From a virus, in the IMG/VR virus record IMGVR_UViG_3300028584_000320, positions 1,001-65,000 of that record: a DNA stretch of 64,000 nt, one strand, 5' to 3'. Of the stretch, positions 14,337 to 63,108 are shown one piece after another. How positions within the stretch are numbered: position 1 is the stretch's first letter; each line of letters starts with the position of its first letter. The notes beneath the pieces are model-generated. The model was not told the DNA's origin and ran no database searches. It worked only from the letters and a program-made list of their open reading frames with translations. The translations under genes were made by a program, and so were the position numbers.

Positions 14337-14364
14337 TTCAGGATGACGCCGCTTAAGCGGTCGT
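14337..14364 (-). promoter_or_regulatory. hairpin + CATCCTGAA element (one of at least 11 intergenic copies)
   Basis: ACG-A-CCGC-TTAA-GCGG-CGT-CATCCTGAA, 8 nt before the SASA ATG. Confidence 0.65.
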
Positions 14365-14386
14365 TGTGGGTAGGCTTAGTGGTAAC

Positions 14387-14581
14387 TCAGCGAGAGTGAG
14401 CTCGTATGCCTTCCTCGATCGAGCGACCGAAGATGGTTTCAGCGATGTTCAGGCCGGCAGCAGTGCCGTCCAGGGTGTCAGCGATCCGCTTGAGGCTGAT
14501 CGCTATGGAGGCCAGAGCCGGCCATTCTTCATCAGGCATGTGGGCCACGCCTGGCTCGAGGAGATTTTGGTTGAGGTTCAT
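14387..14581 (-). CDS. hypothetical protein
   Basis: Start at ATG 14581 by ATGA coupling; amphipathic helix LASIAISLKRIADTL. Confidence 0.6.
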   Translation of the reverse strand: MNLNQNLLEPGVAHMPDEEWPALASIAISLKRIADTLDGTAAGLNIAETIFGRSIEEGIRAHSR

Positions 14582-14811
14582 CAGTTGGCTCCGATCAGCT
14601 CGTTGTAGCGATCGATAGCCATTTGGGTGCCGAACAGGCTGTAGACGTTGTCTATTTGTCCCTCGATGCACGTGCGGAAGCAGTGTGTATGCGGCGTGAA
14701 GGTGAGCTTGATCCTGTGTCCCCAGCTGTCGGTGCAGCTGGCAATGGTGATGCGATGAGACAGCACATTCGTGACGTCGCTGAAGGTCAGCGCTTCGGGC
14801 TTAGAAGCCAT
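14581..14811 (-). CDS. hypothetical protein
   Basis: 76-aa ORF coupled to neighbours. Confidence 0.6.
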   Translation of the reverse strand: MASKPEALTFSDVTNVLSHRITIASCTDSWGHRIKLTFTPHTHCFRTCIEGQIDNVYSLFGTQMAIDRYNELIGAN

Positions 14812-14968
14812 GGCTTAGGAACCCAACGCTGCCGCCCACCAAGATAAAATATACCAAACCAACCAATGCCTTTTGGGGTCTGATAGTCTGGCCTGGTCTG
14901 AGAGTTCCGATGTTCCAAATAGCAATCAAGCCCCAGATGAATGCGGCGATTGCGATGCCATTTCTCAT
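14801..14968 (-). CDS. small membrane protein with two TM helices (55 aa)
   Basis: MRNGIAIAAFIWGLIAIWNIG...ALVGLVYFILVGGSVGFLSHGF; below the ORF-track cutoff. Confidence 0.6.
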   Translation of the reverse strand: MRNGIAIAAFIWGLIAIWNIGTLRPGQTIRPQKALVGLVYFILVGGSVGFLSHGF

Positions 14969-15060
14969 AGGTAATAGCCTTTAGGTGATTATCGCCAGAA
15001 TTGGCTCAAAAGTCGGAATAGTCGGAACTTGGTCTATCGCCAGTTGGACTATCAGTAGAG

Positions 15061-15103
15061 CTAAAACGAACCTCAGAGCAATAGCTCTGAGGTTCGTCTT
15101 TAG
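15061..15103 (-). terminator. long perfect hairpin, probable terminator after gp2
   Basis: 14-bp stem ACGAACCTCAGAGC/GCTCTGAGGTTCGT, 4-nt loop, TTTT on the minus strand. Confidence 0.7.
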
Positions 15104-15120
15104 AGGGATGTTGAGTTCGC

Positions 15121-15537
15121 TTAGCCGACAGCGAACAGCTTGGGACGAGCGTAGTGGTTCGACTCGTCGGTCTTGGGAGCTGCGACTTCATCCAGGATGC
15201 GTCGGATCTGGATAGCCATTCCGCCTTCGGCGTTGATGACATAGTCCTGGCCAGGTGCCAGGCCTTCGGCTGCTTCCAGGATCTGGGTCAGCAGGTCATT
15301 GCGAGCTGCTTGGAACATGGCGTAGTCGGGATTGCTGGAGCGGGTCTTCACTGCGTCCATGGTGTCCAGGGGAATGCCCATGGGCAGGCTGACGAAGCGG
15401 AAGGTGCCGTCTTCGTCCTTGACGTCCGAGACATAGCCAATGTTGAGCCAGAACTTGGCCTTGGGCTTGTCGCTGTTGTTGGTGGTCGTGGCTTGGGTGC
15501 CGAGGTTCTTCAGGGCCGAGAGGTTGATGGCGGACAT
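15121..15537 (-). CDS. N4 gp2-like ssDNA-binding activator of RNAPII
   Basis: KPKAKFWLNIGY...RFVSLPMGIPLDT...ARNDLL..I matches the recalled N4 gp2 family; early position. Confidence 0.8.
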   Translation of the reverse strand: MSAINLSALKNLGTQATTTNNSDKPKAKFWLNIGYVSDVKDEDGTFRFVSLPMGIPLDTMDAVKTRSSNPDYAMFQAARNDLLTQILEAAEGLAPGQDYVINAEGGMAIQIRRILDEVAAPKTDESNHYARPKLFAVG

Positions 15538-15549
15538 GGTGGTAGTTCC

Positions 15550-15577
15550 TTCAGGATGATGCCGATTTTCGGCGTTG
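15550..15577 (-). promoter_or_regulatory. hairpin + CATCCTGAA element upstream of gp2
   Basis: GCCGA-AAA-TCGGC-AT-CATCCTGAAGGAACTACC-ATG. Confidence 0.65.
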
Positions 15578-15603
15578 GGTAATGGGGCGAGAAACTCACG
15601 AAA

Positions 15604-15617
15604 GCCGCGTAAGCGGC
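15604..15617 (-). promoter_or_regulatory. putative virion-RNAP hairpin promoter (upstream of gp2)
   Basis: Template hairpin GCCGC-GTAA-GCGGC. Confidence 0.6.
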
Positions 15618-15624
15618 CCTTAGC

Positions 15625-16068
15625 TCAGAGGTAGACGTATTCACGATCATAATAGTCGTCGTAGTCTTTTTGCCGGTAGTCATCGACATAGTCGTCTTCA
15701 GTTTCTTCTTCGGGCTCGTTGTAGCGATCCCAATCTTCGTCGATGTAATCCCAGCCGTAGTCGTGCTCAGCCAGCTGCTCTTCCCAGCAGTCATCTTCAA
15801 TGTCTAGGAAGTGCTGGTTGATCATTGCAGCAATGGCGTGCTGCATTTGTCTACGACGGTCTTTGCCGGCTTTGCGCTTGAAGAACCTGGCTGCTCCAGG
15901 ACGGAATTCCTCCCGGTAGCAGTGGTTCTTGTTGGTGCTCATGTAGAGACATGAGCACCGTTTATGCGATCCCGAGTTAGCTCCGTCTTTGTCGGAGCTC
16001 CCGGATTGAGTGGATCCGTGGAGCTGCCAACGTCCGCGGACTTCCTGATGTTTAAGGAAATTGGGCAT
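15625..16068 (-). CDS. hypothetical protein with very acidic Asp/Tyr-rich C-terminus
   Basis: TAATG overlap at 16068; alternative start ATG 15942. Confidence 0.6.
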   Translation of the reverse strand: MPNFLKHQEVRGRWQLHGSTQSGSSDKDGANSGSHKRCSCLYMSTNKNHCYREEFRPGAARFFKRKAGKDRRRQMQHAIAAMINQHFLDIEDDCWEEQLAEHDYGWDYIDEDWDRYNEPEEETEDDYVDDYRQKDYDDYYDREYVYL

Positions 16069-16646: not shown

Positions 16647-16860
16647 CCAGGATGCGCTGGGTGATCACCGGCATAGCCGAAAGGACCGGCAGCCAGATAA
16701 TGATCAGGCCCGCTGCCATGCCCAGGGACACGTAGCGAGTCGCCTTATGGGCACGGCCGGCACTGAGAGCGGAGAAGAACAGCATCCCACTCATGAAGGG
16801 TGGAATGACGCAGCAAGCGACCAACAGGATGTAGGTCACAGTCTCGATCGAGATGTGCAT
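16639..16860 (-). CDS. small membrane protein (2 TM)
   Basis: Start reassigned to ATG 16860 after GAAGGA SD; two hydrophobic segments. Confidence 0.65.
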   Translation of the reverse strand: MHISIETVTYILLVACCVIPPFMSGMLFFSALSAGRAHKATRYVSLGMAAGLIIIWLPVLSAMPVITQRILVA

Positions 16861-16870
16861 TGGGTAGTCC

Positions 16871-16896
16871 TTCAGGATGTGGAGCCTTTGGCTCTC
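16871..16896 (-). promoter_or_regulatory. hairpin + CATCCTGAA element
   Basis: GAGCC-AAA-GGCTC-CA-CATCCTGAAGGACTACCCA-ATG. Confidence 0.65.
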
Positions 16897-16906
16897 TTGG
16901 GCAGAC

Positions 16907-17119
16907 TTAGGCGGCTTCTTGAACCAGGTCCTTGGGCGCATCCTCGGTCTTGATGACCTTGCAGATGTAGGGGTTGTTTTTGAAGGCCAGCTGAATGTGG
17001 TCTTCGGGGCAATCGCCCCAGCCAGGGACCATGTCCAGAGCCACTTCGAAGGTGATCAGCACCTTCTTGGTGCAGGGTCCGAAGCTGTATTGGTTCGTAT
17101 TCTCAATCAGATGAGACAT
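16907..17119 (-). CDS. hypothetical protein
   Basis: 70-aa ORF with GAAGGA SD. Confidence 0.7.
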   Translation of the reverse strand: MSHLIENTNQYSFGPCTKKVLITFEVALDMVPGWGDCPEDHIQLAFKNNPYICKVIKTEDAPKDLVQEAA

Positions 17120-17130
17120 GTGGGTATTCC

Positions 17131-17158
17131 TTCAGGATGACGGGGCTTAGGCCCTCGT
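17131..17158 (-). promoter_or_regulatory. hairpin + CATCCTGAA element
   Basis: ACG-A-GGGC-CTAA-GCCC-CGT-CATCCTGAA; same bulged stem as 14337 with compensatory changes. Confidence 0.7.
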
Positions 17159-17200
17159 ATGGGGAATGGTGTGGCTTAGCTTTGGCTCGGAGTCGAGCGT

Positions 17201-17425
17201 CTAGCGACGGATGCTAAAGCCGTGACGGATGATGGTGATCGTCCCGAGGACGATGGCATTGGCGAACAGCAGGCAGGCAACGCCGAAAGCAAGCATGCCG
17301 AAGCTGTAGACCAGCATTTCGTATTTAGGCTCGATGGTGGAGGACGCTTTGTAGCTGACCCAGGCGAAGCCAGTCAGGAACAGGGCGACGTAGGTCGAGA
17401 GCATGATGGATGCGAGACGAGACAT
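17201..17425 (-). CDS. small membrane protein (2 TM)
   Basis: Two long hydrophobic segments; preceded by ATCCC-AAA-GGGAT-CATCCTG-ATG. Confidence 0.7.
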   Translation of the reverse strand: MSRLASIMLSTYVALFLTGFAWVSYKASSTIEPKYEMLVYSFGMLAFGVACLLFANAIVLGTITIIRHGFSIRR

Positions 17426-17450
17426 CAGGATGATCCCTTTGGGATTGTTG

Positions 17451-17744
17451 TTAGGCAGTTGCCCAGGGTGTGCGACCGGGTTTTGGATCGCCCATTAGGA
17501 GACGAGTCACGGACTTCTTCGGGGTAGCCCGATCATTGTCGTTCCGTGAGAACTCGATGGAGTACTGGCCTCGGCTTTCACCATTAGGAAGGCGAGTGAG
17601 CTTGTCGAGGATGGGCACTTCGGAGCGTCTTTTAGATCCGCGTTTGTAGAACGCAACATTACGCTCTTGGCAAGATAGTTCGTAGTCGTAGCTCATGAGG
17701 TCTACTCCAGTAGACATGAGTTGAGGATAGGTTGAGCTGTACAC
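17451..17744 (-). CDS. hypothetical protein
   Basis: 97-aa ORF; true start may be MSYDYEL. Confidence 0.55.
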   Translation of the reverse strand: MYSSTYPQLMSTGVDLMSYDYELSCQERNVAFYKRGSKRRSEVPILDKLTRLPNGESRGQYSIEFSRNDNDRATPKKSVTRLLMGDPKPGRTPWATA

Positions 17745-17815
17745 CAGTGGATGGTGAGCAGGTGTGTTTACCTGACAGTGCGTGGACTGTCTTTAGGCAA
17801 GGGATAGTCCCCCGC

Positions 17816-18127
17816 CTAAGCGGGGGACTTGTTGAGGGAATCGACGATTTCTTGGATACGATCAGCCCTGGTAGGATTCTTAGAGATATACTCACTAAGA
17901 GTGTCCTCAGCCTTGATGATACGCATAGCAACGCTGGAGCTGAGCTCAGCTTTGAAGCCATTCTTATTGGCTTCGATGGTCTGGGTTTGCTCCCAGTGCG
18001 CATTGTCAGCGAAAGAGTTGAGCATCTTTGCGCCAGTACCGACAGCACCGATGAGTGATGTAGCGGTAGATGCGACCTCATTGACGGTCGAGAGTAGTGC
18101 AGCAGCAGTAACGCGGGCGTTAGCCAT
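17816..18127 (-). CDS. first early gene (N4 gp1-like)
   Basis: ATG 18127 after GGAGAA SD; ALLSTVNEVA..A..LIGAVGTGAKMLNSF resembles recalled N4 gp1; directly follows a hairpin promoter. Confidence 0.6.
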   Translation of the reverse strand: MANARVTAAALLSTVNEVASTATSLIGAVGTGAKMLNSFADNAHWEQTQTIEANKNGFKAELSSSVAMRIIKAEDTLSEYISKNPTRADRIQEIVDSLNKSPA

Positions 18128-18158
18128 TGTAGTTCTCCATGTATATGGGTGAGAGTTC

Positions 18159-18179
18159 TCCATAGCCGCGTAAGCGGCT
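18159..18179 (-). promoter_or_regulatory. putative virion-RNAP hairpin promoter (Pe1-like)
   Basis: Template strand TCC-AT-AGCCGC-GTAA-GCGGCT; TCC offset resembles the recalled N4 promoter TCCAAAAGAAGCGGAGCTTC. Confidence 0.65.
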
Positions 18180-18204
18180 TAGTTTATGGGGGGTGGGTTG
18201 ATTT

Positions 18205-18244
18205 GTGTTAGTGTTAAGACCCCGGGGGGGTAGTGTTAGTGTTA
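18205..18244. repeat. direct repeat GTGTTAGTGTTA x2 within G-runs
   Basis: Copies at 18205-18216 and 18233-18244. Confidence 0.8.
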
Positions 18245-18527
18245 GGGGGGCATAGCCCCCAGTGTACTGCTACAGCACACAGCTAACGGTTTTCTTGTAC
18301 TGCGGCTGTTCGAGCCAGCACACAACAAACACTTTTCTGCGCACTGCGATCGCTAAACTAGCGCTCACCAACAGCTTTTCCCCTGTGACGGGAAAAGTTA
18401 CGCGCTCGATATAAATGTACAGATCAACCGTTCATCATATAAAAATGAGCCGCATTGCGCATGTTGAGATATAAGTTTGAGGAAGCTTAACCAGCTCAAC
18501 TGGCAGTGTTAGTTATACCGATGTTCG

Positions 18528-19019
18528 ATGAATACTCTATCTAAGCGTCTGCGACCCAATGTTGAGGAGCACTCCTTTGAGTTGAAGCGGTCTCTTGGCG
18601 GACAGTTAATCCGTCATATGGCCCTTAGCCGTCGCTTAAGCGTAGGTGACATGGACACCATGTTTGTCCTGTCGGTGCTCATTATCAGGATGGGGGGAGA
18701 ACCCCTGCAATCTAAGGGGAGATCGGCTGGTTCCCCAGCTGATGAGATCGGTCCGATCCCCATGCTGCCTGTCAGCATCCAGTTCATAGCTCGAGCCACG
18801 GGTATTCCGCGGGAGACTGTCCGTCGGAAGGTCAATCAGCTGGTTCAGATTGGCTGGGTCGAGAGGATCGATGGGGGAACCAAGTTAGGGCTCACTCCCC
18901 TGGGCTACAGAGATAGCCTGCCCATACGGGACTCTTGGATCGACCTGGTGGTGGATAATTACCTGGCGGTTGACAGGTTGCTGACCCGTAAAAGGCAGAG
19001 CGATTCTTCTACCTATTAG
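18528..19019 (+). CDS. winged-HTH transcriptional regulator (Crp/MarR-like C-terminal HTH)
   Basis: SIQFIARATGIPRETVRRKVNQLVQIGWVER HTH plus wing. Confidence 0.8.
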   Translation: MNTLSKRLRPNVEEHSFELKRSLGGQLIRHMALSRRLSVGDMDTMFVLSVLIIRMGGEPLQSKGRSAGSPADEIGPIPMLPVSIQFIARATGIPRETVRRKVNQLVQIGWVERIDGGTKLGLTPLGYRDSLPIRDSWIDLVVDNYLAVDRLLTRKRQSDSSTY

Positions 19020-19336
19020 AGAAGCCCATATTGGGCGCCTTCTATTGCGAGAGCTACCTTGGGTCCGTAGAGCCACCCGGGTTCTCTGCAGGGGTGTATA
19101 AAATAGGAGGAACCAGACAGAACACACAGAGCTTCCCGGGGGACAGGTAAAGAACCCCGAATGTCATTGTGCGTTCTGCTGGTTCCCCCGACTCTTATAG
19201 AGAACGAGGCCGTGGGCTCCCTACCAGCGATTTACCCCAAACCATCCTGAAGAGAGGGGGGTAGCGCTGGTCCCGCTCGCGAGAGACGGAAGCCTTATAG
19301 AGGTAACTTAGGGGAATGTCTCTCTGGTCATTGCCC

Positions 19337-19378
19337 AAAAAGAAAAGCCCCATCCGGCTCATTCCGGTTGGGGCTTTT
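19337..19378. terminator. bidirectional rho-independent terminator
   Basis: AAAAGCCCCA.CCGG / CCGG.TGGGGCTTTT stem flanked by A- and T-runs. Confidence 0.75.
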
Positions 19379-19744
19379 CCATGTAGGGCATCCAGGGCAG
19401 GAGGAACGACCCTGATCTATCTACTGCGAGTGTTATATCCCCACCGCTCGCTGGGGTCATGACTAACAAGCATCACTTACGCCGACCGCACAGGTCGAGA
19501 TCAGTGTTGGGCTAATAGAGCCGCTGAGTAAACACTCTAGTTATATTGGGGGAGTTCCCATTATTACCCTGGTCCTAAACCCCCTACGTAGTAGGGGTTT
19601 AGACAATAGCCGGGTCTGATCCGTTTTATTCCTAAGGAATCGGATCTGTCGGGTAGTACGGGTACTTGCGCAAAAGCGATATAGGACCTAGAGGCTAATC
19701 TGTAAAGCGTCCAAGTCGAGACGCCATCCTGATAGGTAAAACAG

Positions 19745-20242
19745 ATGAGCCATAGAGAGAACCCTATCGTACCGACAGTGGGGCGGACTGTATTGGTTAG
19801 AGGAACGCACGTTCATTCCCTGGATCCGCACCGGGAAATGCCTGCGATTGTTACGGAGGTGATCGACAAGAACACTCTGACGGTCGAAGTGTTTGGTAGG
19901 GGCCGAGAAGCGAACTTGATCCTGGACGCGGATTACCGACCCAATCTGGGTCTCCCTATTGTGGGGGCAGGCTGGCGGTGGATGGATTACCAGGTCCAAC
20001 AGGGCGCGAAGGCGGTCACGCCTGAGAAGGTGTCCGACGTGTCGACGCCCCTTAGCCGGCTGCAAGACGAGCTCCATGACCTGAGCACCAGGTTCACTGC
20101 CCTTGGTAATTTCCTTGGTTCGGCTGGCTTTAGGGCTCTGTCCATGACCCGCCAGGACCTGCTCGGTGCCCAGCACTCAGCCATGCAGGTCTACCGGAGC
20201 ATCCTCCTTCAGCGGACCCAGCTGCTGACAGCCGAGGCCTGA
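19745..20242 (+). CDS. hypothetical protein (beta-rich N-domain + helical C-domain)
   Basis: 165-aa ORF, first gene of the plus-strand block, preceded by hairpin + CATCCTGA. Confidence 0.75.
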   Translation: MSHRENPIVPTVGRTVLVRGTHVHSLDPHREMPAIVTEVIDKNTLTVEVFGRGREANLILDADYRPNLGLPIVGAGWRWMDYQVQQGAKAVTPEKVSDVSTPLSRLQDELHDLSTRFTALGNFLGSAGFRALSMTRQDLLGAQHSAMQVYRSILLQRTQLLTAEA

Positions 20243-20319
20243 GCACACACGGAACGCTAAGTTTCCGGCGTGAGTCGGGAACTGAGACCCAACCCAACGA
20301 CAACATAAGGCGTCCTGAT

Positions 20320-20691
20320 ATGAACCAGACCTCTCTCTTTCCTCCCACTGAAGCCGAACTGAAGGAGCGTTCAATTGCTCCTCGTGTGACGCTCGACGCG
20401 CTTAATGCGAACATCGCCTGCGTGAACTACATCAATGTGGGCGATGCGGTCTGCAAGTCGAACCAGCCTGATCACGTCAGCCACCATCTGCTGACGATCT
20501 GCGTCATCGTTCTCAAGAACGGATTCACCGTCACCGGCGAGAGCGCCTGCGCCAGCCTGGAGAACTACCAGCAGGACATTGGTGAGCGGATCGCGTTCGA
20601 GAATGCCAAGAACAAGATCTGGCCGCTAATGGGCTACGCTCTGAAGGAGCAGCTGCTCCTGGTCAACGAAGTGTCCGAGGTTGAAGCCTGA
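20320..20691 (+). CDS. Gp49/Sf6 gp66 family phage protein
   Basis: TICVIVLKNGFTVTGESACAS.ENY...IGERIA...A..KIWPLMGY signature. Confidence 0.85.
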   Translation: MNQTSLFPPTEAELKERSIAPRVTLDALNANIACVNYINVGDAVCKSNQPDHVSHHLLTICVIVLKNGFTVTGESACASLENYQQDIGERIAFENAKNKIWPLMGYALKEQLLLVNEVSEVEA

Positions 20692-20987
20692 TGGCCTTCT
20701 TCCGCAAGATAGCATCGCCGGAGCGCACGTTCGAGGCCATGCGCTGGCCAGGCATCACCAGCGTATGGGCGCTCGAGGATATCCTCAAGTTTGAGAAGTG
20801 GTTTCTAAAACAGAAGTCTTACCGGCCTGAAATGGCTGAGGCCAAGTACGTAGGTGATAAACTGGTTATCAGGCCCGGCCTAACCGCTGAACCTGGTGAC
20901 TGGGTCATCTTCGGCAAGGGCTGTTTTGGCGCCAGCATTCCAGAGTTCTTCGAGGCCAACTACGAAAAGGTCGAGGTTGATCAATGA
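20691..20987 (+). CDS. hypothetical phage protein
   Basis: 98-aa ORF, A.PGDWVI...F...YE pattern. Confidence 0.7.
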   Translation: MAFFRKIASPERTFEAMRWPGITSVWALEDILKFEKWFLKQKSYRPEMAEAKYVGDKLVIRPGLTAEPGDWVIFGKGCFGASIPEFFEANYEKVEVDQ

Positions 20988-21220
20988 ACGACAACGTCAT
21001 CAACCTGGTCCGTCCTCCTGTGAACGAGGACATCATTGCCATCCTGGAGGAGCAGCTGGAAGAGGCAAGGGCCGGCAACCTCAGGGCTTTGGCCCTGTCC
21101 GTCGTAACGACTGCCGGTGAGATTGGCGGAGAAGTCTACTCAGGGGACTGCTTTGCGGTCCTCTTGGCTTCTCTGACCTGCATCCAGCACGAGATTATCG
21201 ACCAGGCCAGAGGCGCCTGA
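20984..21220 (+). CDS. hypothetical protein
   Basis: 78-aa ORF, ATGA overlap. Confidence 0.65.
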   Translation: MNDNVINLVRPPVNEDIIAILEEQLEEARAGNLRALALSVVTTAGEIGGEVYSGDCFAVLLASLTCIQHEIIDQARGA

Positions 21221-21335
21221 AACGAAAAGGCAGCCGGGGCTGCTCCGCGACCAACGGACCCCGACTGCCAAACCCATCCAAAGCACAAAGCCACCAGGAC
21301 AGAAGTGAAATATCACTCATCCTGAAGGGTTCAAA

Positions 21336-22025
21336 GTGCTTACAAAAGAATTGGTGGAGCGGGCCGTGCCCGCAAACCTCAAGAGCTCTATTACTCAGCA
21401 GTTGGTCGACAGGATCAACAACGCTGTAGGCGACCCTGTCATTGCAGATCAGGTGCGTGAGAACTTCCTAAACTACACCTCCGTGCTGCGAGACGGGAAG
21501 TTCAAGACCGAAGATTACCTGAGCGCCGTCATGTACGTGAGCTTCAAGCTCCTGGGTGACAGCAACCTGATCGCCTACACGAAGACCTTCCCTCAGCGAT
21601 ACACCGACCTGCTGGCCAAGGGCACATCGTCCAAGGACATCGCTGCTTATGTGGCGGCCTACAACAAGGGCAAGCTCGTCAACCTGGTGTTCGAGCAATC
21701 CGCGGTGCCCAGCTGGGTGCTGAACCAGCACATCTACCAGGAAGCCATCAACACCCAGTACGACCTGATGACCTCTGCCCAGTCAGAGAAGGTCCGAACT
21801 GAGGCTGCGAACTCGCTGCTGACGCATCTCAAGCGACCTGAAGCCATCAAATCCCAGATCGATATCAACCTGAAGGACTCTTCAGGCCTGACTGAGATGA
21901 AAGAAGCCATGCGTCAGATGGCTGTCCAGCAACAACAGCTCATCCAAAGCGGCGCATCAGCCAGACTGATAGCCGATTTGCCCCTCATTGAAGGCGACTT
22001 CACCGAGGTGTCTGATGACGCTTAA
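21336..22025 (+). CDS. N4 gp69-like protein (probable terminase small subunit)
   Basis: Size and position directly upstream of terL as in N4-like phages. Confidence 0.75.
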   Translation: MLTKELVERAVPANLKSSITQQLVDRINNAVGDPVIADQVRENFLNYTSVLRDGKFKTEDYLSAVMYVSFKLLGDSNLIAYTKTFPQRYTDLLAKGTSSKDIAAYVAAYNKGKLVNLVFEQSAVPSWVLNQHIYQEAINTQYDLMTSAQSEKVRTEAANSLLTHLKRPEAIKSQIDINLKDSSGLTEMKEAMRQMAVQQQQLIQSGASARLIADLPLIEGDFTEVSDDA

Positions 22026-23610: not shown

Positions 23611-23619
23611 GCCAGACAC

Positions 23620-30688: not shown

Positions 30689-30744
30689 TTGCAGTTAAGC
30701 AAAAACAATACCCATCCTGAAACGTCTAAGGACCAGTTAGACAA

Positions 30745-49200: not shown

Positions 49201-50524
49201 GTTGGGTGTGTGGCGTGGTCGCCAGGCCGAAGAGGCTATTGCTCAGCAGTTCAACGAGCAGCTGGTGACCAGGCTGCAGACGATCTGGGAAGAGGGCAAA
49301 GGCAAGACCCGCGGAAACGAGTTCATCAATCTGTTCGACGCTGACGAGCAGAAGAAGGACCCAGTTATGGCTGATGCCATGAGCCTGCTCACGCCTGAGG
49401 CCCTTGAGCACATCAAGAACACCTTTGGTGCTGACGGCTTCATGGTTCGTCGGGACATGATAAACGACGCCATCGGCTACCGAGCGGCTTCGATTGGTGA
49501 TGCCTGGCACGGCACGACTCGCATTCCTGCAGCGGCCTCTGACGTGGTTCGCAAACTGGCTATCGGTGTGTGGGGCAAGGATGCCTATCGCAACCTGGTG
49601 GTGGCTGAGAAGCTGACCCAAAACCTGGTGAGCGAAGCCCGCCAGACCATCGTGGTTCGATCGGTTGTGGTGCCTGTGTCGAACCTGGTGGCCAACATCT
49701 ACCAGATGCTGTCCAGAGGTGTTCGCCTGGACCGCATCGCCAAGGACATGCCCAAGAAGCTGGCTGAGGTGAATGGCTACGTAAAGCGCCGTAAGCGCCT
49801 CCTGGAGCTGGAAGCCGACCTTCGTGCAGCCGGTGACAGCTCAGCCCGTGTTCGTCAGATCCAGACCGAGATGAAGATCATCAATGACACCGACAAGCGG
49901 ATGTCTATCTGGCCGTTGATTGCGGCCGGCGAGTTCTCGTCGATCTCTGAGGCCGGTAGCCTGGAGAAGGAGGAGCTCAGCCTCTATGAGGGCCGGCTGA
50001 CGGACTACATCGAGAGCAAGGTGGACAAGCTCCCCAAGGGTCTAAAGACCGCGGTTCGCTACGGTCTCGTGACCCAGGACACGGCGCTGTTCCAGGGCAT
50101 GGCCAGAGCCATGGAATACGGGGACTTCCTAGGTAAGGCTATTCGATACGATCACCTGATCGAGGAGAAGAGACTGTCTCAGGAAGAAGCCTTGGCTTCG
50201 ATCGGCGAAGAGTTCGTGAACTACGATCGCCTGCCTGGCCGAACCAGGGCCTACCTGGAGAACATGGGTCTTCTCTGGTTCTACAACTTCAAGATACGAA
50301 GCGTGAAGGTGGCTTTGGCTGCTATCCGAGAAAACCCTCTCCACGCCTTGCTGGTCTCGTTGATCCCGACTCCCCCGTTCATTGGATCGGTCGGGACCAT
50401 GCTGGGAGACAACGTGGTGGCCATGGCTGTCGATGGCAGCCTGCCTTGGTCCATCGGACCGGACATGGGCTTCAGGGCTCACGAGATGAACCCTACGGTT
50501 CAGCTTTTTGATCACGTCTTTTGA
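40217..50524 (+). CDS. virion-encapsidated RNA polymerase (N4 gp50, vRNAP)
   Basis: 3435 aa; GSGRL, motif A EADGMTNG, motif B RDVTKNPQTVIVYG, motif C VYDG; Pro/Glu/Lys linker. Confidence 0.96.
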   Translation: MADISALIAQSLGVVPSKQAEVSAAAEQKKQQLSGKTPAQAYLDAAARFKGQDVAGPDMSTGSAADIQRALLTESIASNQFYGDRSAERSEAETYGDIASGVGLGAVNSVLGIGALGLGVVSDELGTAAAEGISDFNKWGHDKQSAGLAAKRNAYGASNEVDMQDNAALYESDLAQYGAFQAGLNRMGRDAVDAGRNALEDPAILTDGIATGAGSLLVGGPASKALKAVGVAEKLAFPLAIGAMEGGGAYQGAVEASLAKGASRNDANAAGLIAAAVQAPVGAVTGKIVSKFETAPLKVSNLVEGLANIGRETLEEGLQSASGQFAQNVGVKVAVDPNQSLTEGVGEQTALGSLYGMGTAGVIQAPGLAGQAAVSGAKAAFNATVVPFMGREARIQEAAKAQSTEQANAAQAEVVAGAPTLRQELDALVGSSGSADAPKMAEYLNQFFDKVAFDPAEAANESPVVRAAVEGTNNRFDALKSVAAINDDPNASDQMKALAGAYLLKQYNEFKDLVHGGLNATVDKIDDNDPLLAKLREFEDTTLALASHPVIAPAMKAALEAAKSPAVAEQFSQASMEAPGGIEAAQQMAEAVTELTKSDPSSGNLEVLNTIRAHAVSGKIKLTPEQLSILTASSALIRGNAERVAAMKALGIKENARVSEEAQSLEANGDPDKEPVQSASAKAKAAIKAALSGDTELASLHLVDMRLLAEHFQNKVTAFNDNLASGRPDKKTGFTGIRKERRLAEAKWGPASPVWLNTGSETSIRLAQAAALDGKAIADMVNGLSEAFPDIAVKRVDPVALTVDPGLTKTAAEIMKERSRAKDKQPVQEAKPVEAPVQEKPQVDKPEPAKAEEEPAPVAEKPVKEEAPAKAEPALEKPVAEVVPDKKPAETAEKVAVEPEAKEAPFSKLIGAGKNRNWFINGFSAPDASLSRLVGMGDKVFSNIKAAVLSSTALANLTGKKNKAMGADLSASFGTVLGMSGSIVEVMEQRLAAFLSSTDIDKAREENPTQEWVGGRALNIVEVREDGTKGYNVELLQQAVLAGLSWLVQSQSRPLKGMDAEAVAEYAGKPVEQITPDMIDAFNSGVPLVQAAADMGAAITRFWGVKANDNAPEGLVKGVAEGVAKEIMAAMRHESVSLLDISPRTFADPVGQQDAESEDGAVEKSYQFVALKILGDTDTDKAGYRKAWRNMSTMPDAIEQAALVAPDPTRFVGAPSANVPKSQLRNSMVPLSDEQVEMVTNANQTAHMPNMPMVGLYKALGLDALRELFGAGLLDADVEAKTNVNTFRSMKGKNNSISGAFEAFESMVGSIELEAAELGKEAADVPVFFEHAVLGSGRLMVTGAYNPQASKLTREAWLPTRAVVDLTDPEMLTRFKLAVAQAWGEKVHKQSHEASGLVVDRMAQEDVSEVLAALDRFLDTGVMEDDFAQLMIEKFKGKQTAVALHASLEMARYFLASPEELKAFQTHLYVEADGMTNGPIMALYHLSEGSFTESWIELMSKGGLYLGAPGINARIFITGDKENELDVYNVSSTGTQANVAAAKKTYTGKVLRHSGLVDTLLKDLLKGASINDKGELEVGRDVTKNPQTVIVYGAGVAGVTNAVVKKIEEAFYAELTKAEQGLANNADDMIALVEELSSTFIGKSKDGEGFYVTLAREVNLPKDRSYTKYTLTKSQLKNLSGNVQFFFVSHMVKALEAVMDDTSKGRDALQQATAAQSLVMQHTFVKLISDKLATKSDDEAKNFLSKKEMREVERDLLKMFPLIKTDDQSFLAAKNAVSAVYSRARPGKDGKMPSRRRYFQFSRTLDGDLSSDALVRGPSNAGVAAIPMMVQGFGDALTIQKLTTGKDRPKRMLPVYDGIHFPLDTLKEDGTRANEAVYRAWQSNPLQAVSESFQGFLSNLSAKDASGEFSIGMSEELRMDLADLFLGKPRKGEPRRGMDPTEIQVELRLAGRRLANAARKSLARHRALARVQMSVDQMSSIEAAYEPNGKDLISLEGMSSAEQVMVLNQLMEEELAAIDEEAAYLEKGTKEAKAFAEKKTRNAKEVSAAPKATKTQAPKVTQGVDLLRMVRAAKASPDQLNLLKEVAKSLAKSGWEVVEGTADQLAQYAISKGQEPYRGEPGQTIKGYASLAEQRIYVASGESETLLHELIHASVSQTILAHYQGNSTPEVAEAIKRMETLKNEWLAMDRQALSELTPGQRQAYRDAVHQMTLEAGRTDRSKEENEAAALDEFLAWNLSNQDLIKVAQGTKVETRFARVVKRAVAALRSLIYGKGSVRGGNFYTALRFNAGILMNASPTLQSRSDLVFRAQLAGNATRTDTILKGLQAKINVYLNQHSNETINEMVSKEFGAVAVDVGFDLAQSFRKAGFDISHQDEIAFASLVAVLGTNMKLDAASLGRIGDLYAHVNKMISPTDFVTEEGNQAQESIGNTKVQALRGILNGQSIERTDAYGRSTLMPAFLALAMVNDEFRAVLSKMDLPKAEKLKGDSVDNIAQNIGNSAIDSLSEMVSGEGRNRPDVRSAIDTLTEHLAKTVSRDERMVLRATDPIANMIDKANDKVAAVMQSGVKKAYDKLGDLEAGATGKKTKALLEVAKLIVALPSEDLGKGAGEGWLSLANKSNAWEPLRAVLNDLVGRSESNAPIFDLIKPVRSFVQAVRQQAREFVPNLIGSKFKKPLAKEQWSHVFSGLAQSDLAALKLGRKAEDVLQFLSDDTKRSAEISRLEKQIEQLVGADTWKVMKPKAEQLAKFMNTREKGVHLLRNAEAVAGLYGLKQGYVPIDGVAAKVDQLVSLYAVDTLPTDTRASLASLVQDESEGMVYALEYIVGQRVTELAKASTPKARANHYKGYVPSTAERGVQLIVASDSEKVRLEMLGFSRKGDYKGSRYERRQGLGYYYAPLASRSTFSAGVMQNVRQTASGVDPVTGFTHDGLMIAGRIESPAAIRRIQAQMAVRGIAETEGLLPVFGVDGSVVAYERGVDPLQEELLKRDKHLGRMLGVWRGRQAEEAIAQQFNEQLVTRLQTIWEEGKGKTRGNEFINLFDADEQKKDPVMADAMSLLTPEALEHIKNTFGADGFMVRRDMINDAIGYRAASIGDAWHGTTRIPAAASDVVRKLAIGVWGKDAYRNLVVAEKLTQNLVSEARQTIVVRSVVVPVSNLVANIYQMLSRGVRLDRIAKDMPKKLAEVNGYVKRRKRLLELEADLRAAGDSSARVRQIQTEMKIINDTDKRMSIWPLIAAGEFSSISEAGSLEKEELSLYEGRLTDYIESKVDKLPKGLKTAVRYGLVTQDTALFQGMARAMEYGDFLGKAIRYDHLIEEKRLSQEEALASIGEEFVNYDRLPGRTRAYLENMGLLWFYNFKIRSVKVALAAIRENPLHALLVSLIPTPPFIGSVGTMLGDNVVAMAVDGSLPWSIGPDMGFRAHEMNPTVQLFDHVF

Positions 50525-52497: not shown

Positions 52498-52548
52498 TTT
52501 TGGTTTCTTTCGTTTTCAGGATGTTGGTTCTATTGGCTTTTTTCTGTT

Positions 52549-53316: not shown

Positions 53317-53317
53317 A

Positions 53318-53614: not shown

Positions 53615-53631
53615 TGCCATCAACAGCCTGG

Positions 53632-56780: not shown

Positions 56781-56852
56781 ATCATGCCCTCTTCAGGATG
56801 ATTTGGGTGCTCTGTCCCGTTGATCGGGATCAGGCGTAGGGCGGTATTTGTC

Positions 56853-57065
56853 TTAGCGCAGTCGTGCGATCTCCCGGGCCAAGTACCAGGCTGCTTTTTC
56901 CAGATCCTGGATTTGGTTGCCCTTCTCGTCGGCTCGCCAGATGTATTTCATGGCGTTGCCGAGGTTGAAGTTCATGTGCTCGGTCACCTGGATGCATTCA
57001 ACGCCGCTAGGGTGTGCGTTGTAGTGCGCCGGATGATTGACCTGGTCCTGGGAGATCTCAGCCAC
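56853..57065 (-). CDS. DUF3310 protein (T7 gp1.7-like)
   Basis: VNHPAHY...ECI...FNLGNAMKYIWRA..K...DLEKA.WYL; GTG start at 57065. Confidence 0.85.
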   Translation of the reverse strand: MAEISQDQVNHPAHYNAHPSGVECIQVTEHMNFNLGNAMKYIWRADEKGNQIQDLEKAAWYLAREIARLR

Positions 57066-57402: not shown

Positions 57403-57421
57403 TTGGTTCTCCAGAGCAGCT

Positions 57422-60896: not shown

Positions 60897-61405
60897 TAGT
60901 AAAGTAGCCTCGCACAAGCATAAAACTCAATACGAGGCAGCGTCTTTAGGTACTGCTTCATGGTTCGAGTGTCATGCTGAATGGTGTATGCCGCGTCTCT
61001 TAGCCTTGGAAGAGTCTTGAGATCTTCCAAGGTGTCGACGATGCAGTTGGGAAGCGCATCTCTAATGTCTTGAGTGTCGTTACAAGGCATTAGAAGAGGC
61101 ACCAACATTTGGGATATGAGGTGCCGATCGGTCCAGACCTTCTCGATGTCAGCCAGGTATTCGTCCATAGTATCGACAAGTGAGGGATGAAGGCTGGCTC
61201 GTGTTCTAGTACCTCTGGCCAAGTTCGCAGGAAAGTAGCTCATGCCTTTATAAGCAAAGCCATCATGCGGCTTGTCCGGGTAACACTCCTTATTAGAAGT
61301 GATAGCTTGGTCCTTGATCTTCTCTAGTCTGCGCTCTTCAGCAGCGAAGAGAGATCCTGCTATGCGCTTGATGACCTCATGCGCGTTACTAAGGGCCATG
61401 CCCAT
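60896..61405 (-). CDS. conserved N4-like hypothetical protein (gp38-like)
   Basis: QDIRDALP..V motif, synteny between helicase and polymerase. Confidence 0.75.
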   Translation of the reverse strand: MGMALSNAHEVIKRIAGSLFAAEERRLEKIKDQAITSNKECYPDKPHDGFAYKGMSYFPANLARGTRTRASLHPSLVDTMDEYLADIEKVWTDRHLISQMLVPLLMPCNDTQDIRDALPNCIVDTLEDLKTLPRLRDAAYTIQHDTRTMKQYLKTLPRIEFYACARLLY

Positions 61406-61409
61406 CCTC

Positions 61410-62714
61410 CTATTGGATTATGCCTCCGTACTTATCAGCCAGCTTTCCATAGAAAGCGATGCGTGTTCGGGGGCGAGAGACAGCAACGTACAGCATCCGA
61501 GCCGCTTGGTTTGGATTGTGGCAGTCGCTGATGTTGGCGGCGTCAATGTAGATGGTCTCGGTGGTGCTGCCTTGAGCCTTATAGACTGTGGAGGCATCAC
61601 GTTGGCGCAGATCAGGAACCTTGTTCTTCAAGAAGAAGTAACGGTTCCAGTTAGCTTTGCTCTTGTACCACTTGAGCAGAGACTCGAAGTGGGGACGATC
61701 GACCGGCATAGTGACGTTCTTGAACACCTCGCCCAGAGCGGTGCGTAGGTCGGTGCGTCGAACCACCAGAGAGAACTCGCTGTCGACCTCGAGCAGCTCG
61801 GTTTGGGATGCCTGGCTGAGGATTGTGACTTCCTCTTCGACCTTCAGCATCCGGTCCTTGAACTGGATTGCTGAGCTGCTGACAAGGCGTTCACCGACTT
61901 TGAACTCGCTGGGCAGCTGTCGGACTTCACGGATGAAGTCGTTGTAGGTAACCACCTGGCGGTTGGTGTAGGCGAGGATCCGGCTGTCGTGGTCTTGGGT
62001 GCTGAAGACCTGGGAAATCTCAGCCATCATTTCGTCAGGGGTGAGGTGATCGATGACACCCGGGACAACCTGGATCGGTTGAAAGATCCCTGTCTCCACG
62101 GTGTTCCTGAGCTGCTGGCAGATTGCCATCAGAGCCGGCTGAGCACTGTTTCGCATTGGCTCAGTCAGCACGAAGTGCTTGATGCCGCGGCGGTAGATCG
62201 GCGAGAGCGGCTCGGTAATTGGAGCCATCTGGCAGTGATCGCCGACGTAGACGATCTTGCAGTTGTGGGTGCCCTCCAGGATCGCTGTTTCCAGGGGGCT
62301 GTCGATCATCGAGCACTCGTCGACGAACAGGATCTTTCGTTCGTGGACGACCCAGTTGGTGGTCTTGGTGACCTTGGACTTGCCGGTCTCGTAGTTGTCC
62401 TGGACCTTCAGGTTCATAAAGGAGTGGATGGTCGACGCCGGCCGTCCGGTGGACAGGCTCAGGGCCTCGACAGCCTTGTTGGTGGTGGCTGTCATTTCGA
62501 CGGAGTCGTACTGAGGCGTGATGCCCATCAGTTTGCAAGCTTCATAGTACCGCGGCATGATCTCATCGATCATGTGACCCATCAGGAAGGTCTTGCCGTA
62601 GCCACCTGGCCCGCTGATCACCAGCTCCTTGTCTTCGCTGAAGAGGAAAGAGAAGAACCCTTCTGCAGCCTCGTTCTGCCCCTGGTTCAGGGGAGGCTTG
62701 GGTTGAGCGCTCAT
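61410..62714 (-). CDS. SF1B Dda/RecD-like DNA helicase (N4 gp37-like)
   Basis: SGPGGYGKT, FVDECSM, VGDHCQ, TVYKAQGST, YVAVSR. Confidence 0.93.
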   Translation of the reverse strand: MSAQPKPPLNQGQNEAAEGFFSFLFSEDKELVISGPGGYGKTFLMGHMIDEIMPRYYEACKLMGITPQYDSVEMTATTNKAVEALSLSTGRPASTIHSFMNLKVQDNYETGKSKVTKTTNWVVHERKILFVDECSMIDSPLETAILEGTHNCKIVYVGDHCQMAPITEPLSPIYRRGIKHFVLTEPMRNSAQPALMAICQQLRNTVETGIFQPIQVVPGVIDHLTPDEMMAEISQVFSTQDHDSRILAYTNRQVVTYNDFIREVRQLPSEFKVGERLVSSSAIQFKDRMLKVEEEVTILSQASQTELLEVDSEFSLVVRRTDLRTALGEVFKNVTMPVDRPHFESLLKWYKSKANWNRYFFLKNKVPDLRQRDASTVYKAQGSTTETIYIDAANISDCHNPNQAARMLYVAVSRPRTRIAFYGKLADKYGGIIQ

Positions 62715-62932
62715 GCTTGCTCCAGGGTGTTAAGGGGCCGCATGTTCTTGATTGCCTCAGCCACCTGTTCAGCCGTCTCCCAAGTGATAATTATCTCTTG
62801 AGGAGTACTGTCGGATTCAATGTAGGCAATGCGGCACAAACTAAGGCCATCGTTGTCGGGCGATACTTCGACGTAGAAGTTGCGGTTGTTTTCGTAGACA
62901 CGGGCAGTGTGTTCCGTCCATATGTTGGTCAT
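62711..62932 (-). CDS. hypothetical protein
   Basis: 73-aa ORF, ATGA overlap with helicase; preceded by CAATCCTGAA variant. Confidence 0.7.
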   Translation of the reverse strand: MTNIWTEHTARVYENNRNFYVEVSPDNDGLSLCRIAYIESDSTPQEIIITWETAEQVAEAIKNMRPLNTLEQA

Positions 62933-63108
62933 TTTATTCTTTCAGGATTGGATTGAGCTCTAGAGGCTCTTGGGTGGAATGCTTGCGAGTCGCATTCTGC
63001 TCAGCGGGGCAATAAGCAGGGGCAGGGACCGGGTAACCACGTCGGGGGAGGATGTGGCTGCAAGCATTCCGCCGAAGAGCCCCAGCTGCGAGAGCTGGGG
63101 CTGCAGGA

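What the first reader, a model, noticed from the sequence alone, without database searches (positions are those of the whole stretch)
14337..62949. Recurring hairpin + CATCCTGA(A) element just upstream of start codons on both strands
Seen: CATCCTGA occurs on the coding strand in short intergenic gaps at 14337, 15550, 16871, 17131, 17425, 52515, 56792 (minus) and 19725, 21318, 30713 (plus). Variants occur at 62941 (AATCCTGAA) and 20311 (CGTCCTGAT). Most lie 0-25 nt before the start codon. In at least seven copies a 4-8 bp hairpin of differing sequence, mostly with an A-rich 3-4 nt loop, abuts its 5' side: GAGCC-AAA-GGCTC, ATCCC-AAA-GGGAT, GCCGA-AAA-TCGGC, AGTGA-AATA-TCACT, GCGTC..GACGC. Copies 14337 and 17131 share the same bulged stem (ACG-A-NNNC-YTAA-GNNN-CGT) with compensatory changes CCGC/GCGG versus GGGC/GCCC. 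Structure is therefore conserved while sequence is not. Targets include gp2, SSB, gp42 nuclease, gp69 and gp58. Inference: an undescribed phage-wide cis element, which could be an RNAPII/gp2 ssDNA promoter (recalled N4 middle promoters contain a GACCTG block), an RNA processing site, or an RNA-binding-protein site for translational control.
Basis: partly seen in the sequence, partly recalled or inferred. Interest (0 to 1): 0.8.

Follow-up and report, generated by a model that had tools for sequence, protein, structure and literature searches.

The report
Start-associated CATCCTGA box in N4-like phage
A short conserved box, (C)ATCCTGA(A), often preceded by a small hairpin of variable sequence, sits next to the ribosome-binding sites of about 15 genes in this N4-like phage and its uncultivated relatives. 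It is a real gene-expression signal that I could not find described; it is most likely read in the mRNA, and it could instead be a phage-polymerase promoter.

Summary
CATCCTGA occurs 18 times against 3.0 expected. The 7-mer ATCCTGA lies 13 times on the sense strand in 6.1 kb of intergenic DNA, against 1.5 expected.

In 41 elements from 7 related genomes, 27 have a perfect hairpin of at least 4 bp within 5 nt upstream, against a 19% background. Stems change by compensatory substitutions between orthologues.

The box is kept at orthologous genes in uncultivated relatives whose proteins are only 34-77% identical. These genes are gp2, SSB, the exonuclease, the helicase unit, the first late gene, and the gp69-like and gp58-like genes. 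The box is not seen upstream of gp2 or other early genes in N4 or LUZ7.

It is not the virion-polymerase early promoter. Separate GC-rich tetraloop hairpins occupy the N4 P1-P3 positions.

The box lies either directly 5' of the Shine-Dalgarno sequence or between that sequence and the ATG. One further copy sits in the apical loop of a covarying 14-pair hairpin that tolerates G.U pairs on the sense strand only.

My best reading (about 0.4) is a single-stranded RNA operator in translation-initiation regions, read by an unidentified factor. The close rival (about 0.33) is a compact promoter for the phage RNAPII. No expression data could be obtained. The closest analogue is the start-associated sequences (SAS/ESAS) of mycobacteriophages.

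The parts
14338..14364 (-). Element before the 241-aa esterase-like gene. It has a bulged hairpin at 14346-14364 and CATCCTGA at 14338-14345, with 9 nt to the ATG at 14328. A second ATCCTGA lies 23 nt downstream (within 14314-14323), just before an in-frame ATG.
   Evidence: RNA fold -8.2 kcal/mol
15551..15573 (-). Element before gp2 (PF26984). The hairpin GCCGA-AAA-TCGGC is at 15561-15573 and CATCCTGA at 15551-15558, with 13 nt to the ATG. It lies inside the leader that a transcript from the vRNAP-type hairpin at 15604-15617 would carry.
16872..16894 (-). Element before a 73-aa early ORF (ATG at 16860). The hairpin GAGCC-AAA-GGCTC is at 16882-16894.
17132..17158 (-). Element before a 70-aa early ORF (ATG at 17119). 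The bulged hairpin is at 17140-17158.
   Evidence: RNA fold -9.0 kcal/mol
17425..17445 (-). Element whose last A is the A of the ATG of a 74-aa ORF (CATCCTGATG). The hairpin ATCCC-AAA-GGGAT is at 17433-17445, and its loop and 3' arm provide the only Shine-Dalgarno-like stretch.
19223..19271 (+). Long hairpin of 14 covarying pairs with CCATCCTGAA invariant in its apical loop (box at 19243-19250). It lies in a highly conserved non-coding region, with a terminator at about 19337-19378. It is probably part of a plus-strand RNA.
19707..19732 (+). Element before the first gene of the late block (165 aa, PF21825). The hairpin GCGTC...GACGC is at 19707-19724 and the box at 19725-19732, with 12 nt to the ATG.
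20311..20318 (+). Variant box CGTCCTGA one nt before the ATG of a 123-aa gene, with a Shine-Dalgarno-like TAAGG upstream of the box and no hairpin.
21304..21325 (+). Element before the 229-aa phrog_2109 gene that precedes the large terminase. The hairpin AGTGA-AATA-TCACT is at 21304-21317 and is identical in three genomes. There are 10 nt to the GTG.
30713..30720 (+). Hairpin-less box between the portal gene and the 111-aa phrog_2346 gene. That gene heads the cluster ending with the major capsid gene and a terminator. There are 24 nt to the ATG. The box is conserved in L028 and L029.
52516..52523 (-). Hairpin-less box in an A-rich leader before the SSB gene, 18 nt from the ATG. It is conserved in L025, L026 and L027.
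56793..56829 (-). Box before the 325-aa exonuclease gene, 12 nt from the ATG. A covarying hairpin lies 14 nt further upstream at 56815-56829 (CCCG/CGGG here, CCTG/CAGG in L026).
62941..62949 (-). Variant AATCCTGAA before a 73-aa ORF that heads the helicase / DNA polymerase unit, with 9 nt from the 8-mer to the ATG. The relatives carry CATCCTGA or CCATCCTGA at the same place.
18685..18705 (-). Doubtful copy. It has a hairpin plus CATCCTGA but lies antisense inside the plus-strand HTH ORF, has no downstream gene and is not conserved in L001. It is probably chance.

Best explanation
The element is a start-associated RNA signal. A single-stranded box, CAUCCUGA(A), is set in an A/C-rich leader. It is often held open by a small 'clamp' hairpin just upstream, and once it is displayed in the apical loop of a long hairpin.

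It lies within the stretch of mRNA that an initiating ribosome covers. I propose that a sequence-specific trans-acting factor reads it. The factor is most likely a phage-encoded RNA- or single-strand-binding protein; gp2 and the SSB, both of which carry the box on their own mRNAs, are the candidates I can name. The factor would set translation, or stability, of about 15 phage messages together. The loop copy in the conserved non-coding RNA would act as a high-affinity or decoy site.

Shown: the motif, its enrichment, its strand and position, its conservation across relatives, and the covarying stems. Inferred: that it acts as RNA, that a factor binds it, and the direction of control.
For: 1. 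Position. The 7-mer is always beside the ribosome-binding site. It is followed at 0-2 nt by a Shine-Dalgarno stretch in most cases (9-14 nt to the start codon). In 12 cases it lies between a Shine-Dalgarno stretch and the ATG (-1 to 3 nt). No case has 4-8 nt, and in one case it directly follows the ATG. In long gaps of 80-115 nt it still sits at the end next to the start codon.

2. The gp2 genes of L013 and L018 have AGAGGA or CAAGGA upstream of the box and the ATG 2-3 nt after it. The translated mRNA must therefore contain the box.

3. The gp2 copy lies inside the leader that a transcript from the vRNAP-type hairpin would carry.

4. The 19243 copy is in the loop of a hairpin with 7 of 14 pairs changed on both sides and 94% of cells paired, which 0 of 500 shuffles reach. 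That stem has five G.U and no A.C pairs on the plus strand, which points to folding of the plus-strand transcript.

5. The small hairpins are modestly stable as RNA (-3 to -9 kcal/mol). As template-strand DNA they are weak (-2.4 to -5.8) and lack the special loops that let N4 promoters extrude.

6. The first late gene already has a conserved block of about 35 nt upstream of its hairpin and box. That block could hold the promoter.

7. Copies inside genes are not avoided on either strand, so function depends on context.
Against: No binding factor is identified. Pfam and PHROGs found no RNA-binding domain among the early proteins I scanned.

One intergenic copy just outside the window lies 118 nt from the next start.

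Several units look like transcription units running from the box to a terminator: gp2, SSB, and gp58-like to the capsid gene. That arrangement fits a promoter as well.

LUZ7 promoters are hairpins about 13-15 nt upstream of the start site, and N4 RNAPII needs only -7 to +2. Both resemble this geometry.

The G.U argument rests on five sequences. No RNA data were available.
Confidence: 0.4

Rival explanations
1. The box is a compact promoter for the phage's own RNA polymerase. This would be RNAPII (RNAP1+RNAP2) with gp2, reading CATCCTG as -7 to -1 and starting at the final A. The hairpin would help to open or mark the DNA. Transcripts would carry very short leaders or none.
For: The phage encodes RNAP1, RNAP2, gp2 and a gp1-family protein. 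N4 RNAPII needs only -7 to +2 and works on single-stranded template. The LUZ7 paper states that N4 RNAPII starts at thymidine; if that means the template base, the final A of the box fits.

LUZ7 early and middle promoters are hairpins with 3-4 nt loops, 13-15 nt upstream of the start site. Here the loop centre lies 13-16.5 nt from the G/A of the box.

The box heads units that end in terminators, and it heads each replication unit: helicase/polymerase, exonuclease/primase and SSB. Five copies overlap the ATG exactly (ATCCTGATG), which would give perfect leaderless mRNAs, and 11 of the 12 close starts are ATG. Recurrent short motifs before phage genes are most often promoters (general knowledge).
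Against: A promoter between the Shine-Dalgarno stretch and the ATG of gp2 in L013 and L018 would yield messages without a ribosome-binding site for a protein needed in bulk. One copy follows the ATG.

There is no copy in the roughly 17 kb of middle genes after RNAP2, yet there are five in the 3-kb early region and four in the late block.

The hairpins are too weak to extrude from duplex DNA and are absent from a third of copies. The loop copy sits in a stem that tolerates G.U on the non-template strand only. The box is 50% G+C, not AT-rich like N4 middle promoters.
Confidence: 0.33
2. The box is an RNA processing site. A phage or host endoribonuclease cuts in or next to CAUCCUGA. This leaves the hairpin as a protective 3' end on the upstream fragment, and it either frees or inactivates the downstream ribosome-binding site, as T4 RegB does at GGAG.
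For: The hairpin abuts the 5' side of the box. The box is single-stranded and lies beside ribosome-binding sites. Polycistronic phage messages are often processed (general knowledge).
Against: No nuclease candidate was found. Cutting between the Shine-Dalgarno stretch and the ATG would destroy many targets, including gp2. The hairpin is dispensable in a third of copies.
Confidence: 0.1
3. The box is a sequence-specific pause or attenuation signal for a T7-like polymerase. An RNA hairpin followed by a conserved stretch of about 8 nt would occupy the RNA:DNA hybrid, as with the T7 class II signal ATCTGTT.
For: The distance from the hairpin to the end of the box is 8-11 nt, which matches terminator or pause geometry. 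The box shares CATC..TG with the T7 class II signal; that comparison is from my recall and was not tested.
Against: A stop signal between a promoter and gp2, or between a Shine-Dalgarno stretch and its ATG, is counter-productive. There is no U-tract. The association is with the downstream start, not with the upstream stop.
Confidence: 0.05
4. The box is a double-stranded DNA operator for a phage DNA-binding protein (gp1 or the HTH protein at 18528-19019). It would act like the orientation-specific 'stoperators' of mycobacteriophage L5.
For: The site is asymmetric, intergenic and co-oriented with transcription, as stoperators are (mentioned in PMC3203893). An HTH gene lies nearby.
Against: The HTH gene is missing from L017, which keeps the elements. 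Covarying hairpins and a loop-displayed copy point to single-stranded recognition.
Confidence: 0.05

Closest known systems
Start-associated sequences (SAS) and extended SAS of Cluster K mycobacteriophages (Pope et al. 2011, PMC3203893)
   Same: Both are asymmetric short repeats in one orientation, a few nt from the start codons of 11-19 genes per genome. Both are biased to ATG starts and are kept at orthologous genes across sub-clusters. About half of the SAS copies have an inverted repeat just upstream. The function and reader are still unknown.
   Different: SAS is 13 bp and contains the AGGAG Shine-Dalgarno core. This box is 7-9 nt, has no Shine-Dalgarno core, and lies beside or behind it. 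The ESAS repeats are sequence-conserved and do not support RNA pairing, whereas these stems vary and covary. The host and phage groups are unrelated.
LUZ7 hairpin promoters (ONT-cappable-seq, PMC9163698)
   Same: Both occur in N4-like phages. Both have a hairpin with a 3-4 nt loop lying 13-15 nt upstream of the point where the conserved box ends here and where transcription starts in LUZ7.
   Different: LUZ7 early hairpins have a conserved coding-strand TAC loop. LUZ7 middle hairpins are GC-rich with stems of at least 6 bp, and no conserved box is reported. Here the box is the constant part, the stems are 4-5 bp with A-rich loops, and a third of copies have no hairpin.
Coliphage N4 RNAPII middle promoters (PMC4496689)
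   Same: The size is comparable: a minimal -7 to +2 region, read on single-stranded template with gp2. This phage has the same polymerase and gp2.
   Different: The N4 sites are AT-rich and confined to the left half of the genome. I found no recurrent high-information motif in N4 intergenic DNA. This box is 50% G+C and also precedes late genes.
Coliphage N4 virion-RNAP early promoters P1-P3
   Same: Both are a small hairpin upstream of early genes.
   Different: The early promoters are represented here by other hairpins, GCCGC-TTAC/TGAC-GCGGC on the coding strand (GTAA/GTCA loop on the template strand). These lie at 18165, 15604 and 12497, before gp1, gp2 and RNAP1, exactly as in N4. The CATCCTGA hairpins have T-rich template loops and variable stems, and they occur genome-wide.
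T4 RegA / gp32-type translational operators and the RegB cleavage site
   Same: A phage-encoded factor acts on many messages at their ribosome-binding sites. Single-strand-binding proteins repress their own mRNAs next to a structured nucleation point (general knowledge).
   Different: RegA sites are poorly conserved and RegB reads only GGAG. No homologue of either was found here. Membership is not claimed.

Membership tests
N4 vRNAP early (hairpin) promoters | Template-strand hairpin of 5-7 bp, closed by C:G, with a G..A purine loop and conserved stem bases | tested here: not met
   On the template strand the loops are TTT, TATT, TTAG or TTAA, and the stems vary freely. The feature is met instead by the GCCGC-GTAA/GTCA-GCGGC hairpins.
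N4 vRNAP early (hairpin) promoters | Three sites at the left genome end, before gp1, gp2 and RNAP1 | tested here: not met
   The CATCCTGA elements occur in early, replication and late regions on both strands.
N4 RNAPII middle promoters | Minimal AT-rich region from -7 to +2 | tested here: inconclusive
   The size matches at 8-9 nt, but the box is 50% G+C.
N4 RNAPII middle promoters | Transcription starts at the site and depends on RNAPII and gp2 | not testable with these tools
   No usable RNA run was listed. Only contigs of one wastewater run were available.
LUZ7-type middle promoters | GC-rich hairpin with a stem of at least 6 bp and a 3-4 nt loop, about 15 bp upstream of the start site | tested here: inconclusive
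   The spacing fits if the start is at the end of the box. However, the stems are mostly 4-5 bp and not GC-rich, and 14 of 41 copies have no hairpin within 5 nt.
Start-associated sequences (mycobacteriophage Cluster K) | Asymmetric repeat in one orientation within a few nt of many start codons, conserved across related phages | tested here: met
   This is a likeness in behaviour only; there is no sequence relation.
Start-associated sequences (mycobacteriophage Cluster K) | The repeat contains the Shine-Dalgarno core AGGAG | tested here: not met
   The box has no Shine-Dalgarno core. That stretch lies next to it or upstream of it.
Intrinsic terminators | GC-rich hairpin followed by a U-tract | tested here: not met
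   No T-run follows the hairpins, and the terminator scan did not report any of these element hairpins.
Any curated RNA family (Rfam 15) | Match at the gathering score | tested here: not met
   Only a tRNA at 63401-63474 matched. Nothing significant was found in 18000-21500 at E<=1.

The most novel reading that the evidence does not exclude
The phage runs a post-transcriptional regulon. One factor, possibly the single-strand-binding proteins gp2 or SSB acting on their own and other mRNAs, reads CAUCCUGA at about 15 translation-initiation regions. It is buffered by a conserved non-coding RNA that shows the same box in the loop of a long hairpin. This would be a decoy-controlled translational network in a lytic phage that was thought to rely on switching between three polymerases.
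Probability: 0.2. Interest if true: 0.8.

Novelty: new variant of a known kind. Interest (0 to 1): 0.6.

Why it matters
N4-like phages (Schitoviridae) are a model for temporal control by three RNA polymerases. Outside N4 and LUZ7, however, the signals for middle and late expression are unknown.

This element is the strongest recurrent signal in the genome. It marks gp2, SSB, the replication units, the first late gene and the capsid cluster, and it is conserved across a whole uncultivated clade.

If it is a promoter, it gives the first sequence-defined RNAPII promoter outside coliphage N4, with a usable 8-nt consensus. If it acts in RNA, it adds a layer of translational control, with a possible decoy RNA, to a system thought to be purely transcriptional. 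It would also be a Gram-negative counterpart to the still unexplained start-associated sequences of mycobacteriophages.

Either way, one 5'-end mapping experiment would decide between the two readings.

Tried and rejected
- Sequencing runs. None was listed for the 9-kb stretch. One wastewater run, labelled RNA-Seq, holds 85-95% relatives as contigs only. Laying it gave no ends or strands.
- Rfam. No family matched.
- Literature. No paper in the held library mentions the motif in a phage context. The Willis 2002 and Carter 2003 papers are not held, so the true N4 middle-promoter consensus could not be read.
- N4 comparison. GACCTG and ATCCTG are not concentrated upstream of N4 genes, and N4 intergenic DNA has no comparable repeat.
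- L008/L009. CATCCTGA is their top 8-mer, but those copies appear to lie within coding sequence (Ile-Leu codons). This was a false lead.
- TATAG boxes as a genome-wide T7-like promoter. There are only three, all in 19.2-19.7 kb.
- Avoidance of the motif inside genes. Against synonymous-codon shuffles there is no depletion on either strand: 18 observed against 12.7 expected on the sense strand, and 3 against 4.4 on the antisense strand.
- Search for a clade-specific factor. The only proteins found solely in motif-bearing loci are small unknown ORFs, a crAss001_48/'Sequestin'-type protein and an acidic zinc-ribbon peptide. None is an evident RNA binder.
- Wobble pairs in the small hairpins. A.C at the stem base is frequent but is confounded by the C of the box and the A-rich flanks. 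I draw no conclusion from it.
- 16S rRNA complementarity. No host rRNA was obtainable. From memory of the 3' end there is no convincing match.
- Hammerhead-like CUGAUGA. It is present in only a few copies, so I rejected it.


Full report
**What the window is**

The window is bases 1001-65000 of a 71,822-bp genome with 56% G+C. The genome is an N4-like phage (Schitoviridae).
- It encodes a 3435-aa virion RNA polymerase at 40217-50524.
- RNAP1 is at 11561-12493 and RNAP2 at 8952-10163.
- gp2 is at 15121-15537; its homologues carry Pfam PF26984.
- It also encodes an N4-type SSB, an exonuclease, a terminase, a portal protein and a major capsid protein.

The nearest isolates are distant. The capsid protein is about 77% identical to that of Sinorhizobium phage ort11. 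RNAP1 is about 60% identical to that of N4 and Pseudomonas phages.

Minus-strand genes from about 18.1 kb downwards are the early and middle genes. The plus-strand block 19745-50524 holds the late genes. The minus-strand block 50.6-64 kb is the replication module. The stretch 18.1-19.7 kb is largely non-coding and probably holds the genome end.

Yes. CATCCTGA occurs 18 times against 3.0 expected. Twelve copies or one-mismatch variants in the window lie in short gaps on the strand of the next gene.

Genome-wide, the core ATCCTGA lies 13 times in 6.1 kb of sense-oriented intergenic sequence against 1.5 expected (P = 8e-9). ATCCTGAA is the most frequent 8-mer in intergenic DNA (11 copies) and about 15-fold enriched there.

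I collected 41 elements from this genome and six related ones. Of these, 27 have a perfect hairpin of at least 4 bp ending within 5 nt of the box, against 19% at random positions (P = 7e-11). Loops are A-rich on the sense strand (AAA eight times, plus AATA, AAAA, AACA and CTAA).

**Relatives**

No isolate shares the element. Metagenomic contigs do, at orthologous places, although the encoded proteins are only 34-77% identical. These contigs are L001/L022, L012, L013/14, L015/16, L017/L026, L018, L025/L028 and L027.

The orthologous places are:
- before gp2;
- before the 73-76-aa early ORF;
- before the 74-aa ORF whose ATG overlaps the box;
- before the first late gene;
- before the phrog_2109 gene;
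- before the gp58-like gene;
- before SSB;
- before the exonuclease;
- before the helicase unit
.

Stems change by compensation:
- gp2: GCCGA/TCGGC, GCCGG/CCGGC and CCGG/CCGG.
- Exonuclease: CCCG/CGGG against CCTG/CAGG.
- First late gene: four unrelated stems.

The hairpin can be lost while the box stays, as at gp2 in L013, L016 and L018. More distant N4-like loci (L019-L021) lack the box upstream of gp2. In N4 and LUZ7 I did not see it upstream of gp2 or the other early genes I inspected.

**What it is not**

The early region has a second, different hairpin class: GCCGC-TTAC-GCGGC or GCCGC-TGAC-GCGGC on the coding strand, which gives a GTAA or GTCA loop on the template strand. These lie at 18165, 15604 and 12497, directly before gp1, gp2 and RNAP1.

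N4's own P1-P3 hairpins lie before the same three genes. LUZ7's early hairpins have the matching coding-strand TAC loop. These are therefore the virion-polymerase promoters. The CATCCTGA elements are something else.

They are not intrinsic terminators, because no T-run follows them. They match no Rfam family.

**Anatomy that bears on mechanism**

(a) The box always sits beside the ribosome-binding site. The number of nt between ATCCTGA and the start codon is -1 to 3 in 12 cases and 9-14 in 28 cases. It is larger in nine cases and never 4-8.

In the 9-14 group a purine-rich Shine-Dalgarno stretch follows the box at 0-2 nt (ATCCTGA-AGGA, -AAGGAG, -cAGGTA). In the close group the Shine-Dalgarno stretch lies upstream and the box fills the spacer. 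This holds for 10 of the 13 close-group copies I read by eye, including two variant copies. In one case the box directly follows the ATG (L013).

(b) The gp2 copy lies within the leader that a transcript from the vRNAP-type hairpin would carry.

(c) The copy at 19243 is the invariant apical loop (CCATCCTGAA) of a 14-pair hairpin. Seven of its pairs changed on both sides and 94% of cells are paired, which 0 of 500 shuffles reach. It has five G.U pairs and no A.C pair on the plus strand. This hairpin lies in a non-coding stretch that is far better conserved than the flanking proteins. The part I aligned (19379-19760) has 71% mean column identity. A strong terminator follows the hairpin at about 19337-19378. 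This looks like a plus-strand structured RNA.

(d) The small hairpins fold at -3 to -9 kcal/mol as RNA. As template-strand DNA they reach only -2.4 to -5.8 kcal/mol. According to the N4 review, promoter extrusion there depends on an unusually stable G..A loop, which these hairpins lack.

(e) Copies inside genes are not avoided on either strand.

**Weighing the two main readings**

A promoter for RNAPII is attractive for these reasons:
- The phage has the enzyme and gp2.
- N4 RNAPII needs only -7 to +2 on single-stranded template.
- LUZ7 promoters are hairpins 13-15 nt upstream of the start. Here the loop centre is 13-16.5 nt from the end of the box.
- The box heads units that end in terminators, namely gp2, SSB, and gp58-like to the capsid gene. 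It also heads each replication unit.

A promoter is hard to reconcile with these points:
- The box fills the Shine-Dalgarno-to-ATG spacer of gp2 in two genomes.
- It hugs the ribosome-binding site even in long gaps.
- There are five copies in the 3-kb early region but none in the roughly 17 kb after RNAP2.
- The loop copy sits in a G.U-tolerant stem.
- The hairpins are weak and dispensable.

I therefore rank an RNA-level start-associated operator first (about 0.4) and the promoter second (about 0.33). A processing site (0.1), a polymerase pause signal (0.05) and a duplex-DNA operator (0.05) follow. gp2 and SSB are named only because single-strand binders often control their own messages and because both genes carry the box.

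**Comparison with known systems**

The closest behavioural analogue is the SAS/ESAS repeats of Cluster K mycobacteriophages. These are asymmetric and start-proximal, are biased to ATG starts, and are conserved across sub-clusters. Half of them have an upstream inverted repeat, and their function is unknown. They differ in containing the Shine-Dalgarno core and in having sequence-conserved, non-pairing repeats.

Relative to N4 and LUZ7 promoters, the constant part here is a sequence box and the hairpin is optional. I found no description of this element in the held literature.

**Limits**

- There are no expression data.
- Relatives are few and partly non-independent.
- My gene starts come from ORF logic. 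For example, my call at 17659-18081 is probably not the real gp1 frame.
- The strand argument rests on five sequences.

Noticed in passing
window 18165-18178, 15604-15617, 12497-12510 (template = + strand): Three GC-rich hairpins with a GTAA or GTCA template loop lie directly before gp1, gp2 and RNAP1, the same three places as N4 promoters P1-P3. Relatives carry GGCGC-TGAC/TCAC-GCGCC. More distant loci (L019-L021) keep N4-like triloops. This looks like a tetraloop variant of the virion-RNAP promoter.
   Followed up: partly
window 19100-19745 (+): A non-coding region far better conserved than the flanking genes, which are about 40% identical at the protein level. The aligned part (19379-19760) has 71% nt identity across four genomes. 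It holds several covarying stems, a bidirectional terminator at about 19337-19378, and three TATAG(A/G) boxes at 19196, 19296 and 19680. It is a candidate for non-coding RNAs, late-operon promoters, or origin or packaging signals.
   Followed up: partly
window 18190-18250 (- strand, upstream of the first hairpin promoter): Tandem TAACAC(TA) repeats and C-runs lie just upstream of the presumed P1. They may mark the genome's left end.
   Followed up: no
window 13442-13591 (-): A 49-aa, very acidic CxxC...CxxC zinc-ribbon peptide. It is 69-87% identical in L001, L013 and L017, far above its neighbours, and was found only in the motif-bearing clade.
   Followed up: partly
L015:2860-2893 vs L016:418-451: Two strains with identical gp2 protein differ by a G-to-A change inside the box before gp2 (CATCCTAA against CATCCTGA). 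This is a natural knock-out that could be exploited.
   Followed up: no
window 2597-2680, and gaps just outside the window (64710-64826 and 67827-67910 in window numbering): Many gaps without the box end in GACAGGTA(A/G)...ATG. The same AGGT-type Shine-Dalgarno stretch follows the box at the first late gene.
   Followed up: no
window 63401-63474 (-): A tRNA gene (Rfam, 61 bits) lies upstream of the helicase unit. Relatives have a tRNA-like T-arm at the same place.
   Followed up: no
window 17659-18081 (-): The longest ORF after the first promoter translates to low-complexity Ser/Leu/Arg-rich sequence and is probably not a gene. The real gp1 (PF26891 in relatives) must be in another frame near 17816-18125.
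   Followed up: no
L002, L003, L010 (Zuri-like Pseudomonas phage relatives): A different recurrent start-proximal box, (T)GAACCA(A)GGA, precedes several genes. Other N4-like lineages may therefore have their own start-associated boxes.
   Followed up: no
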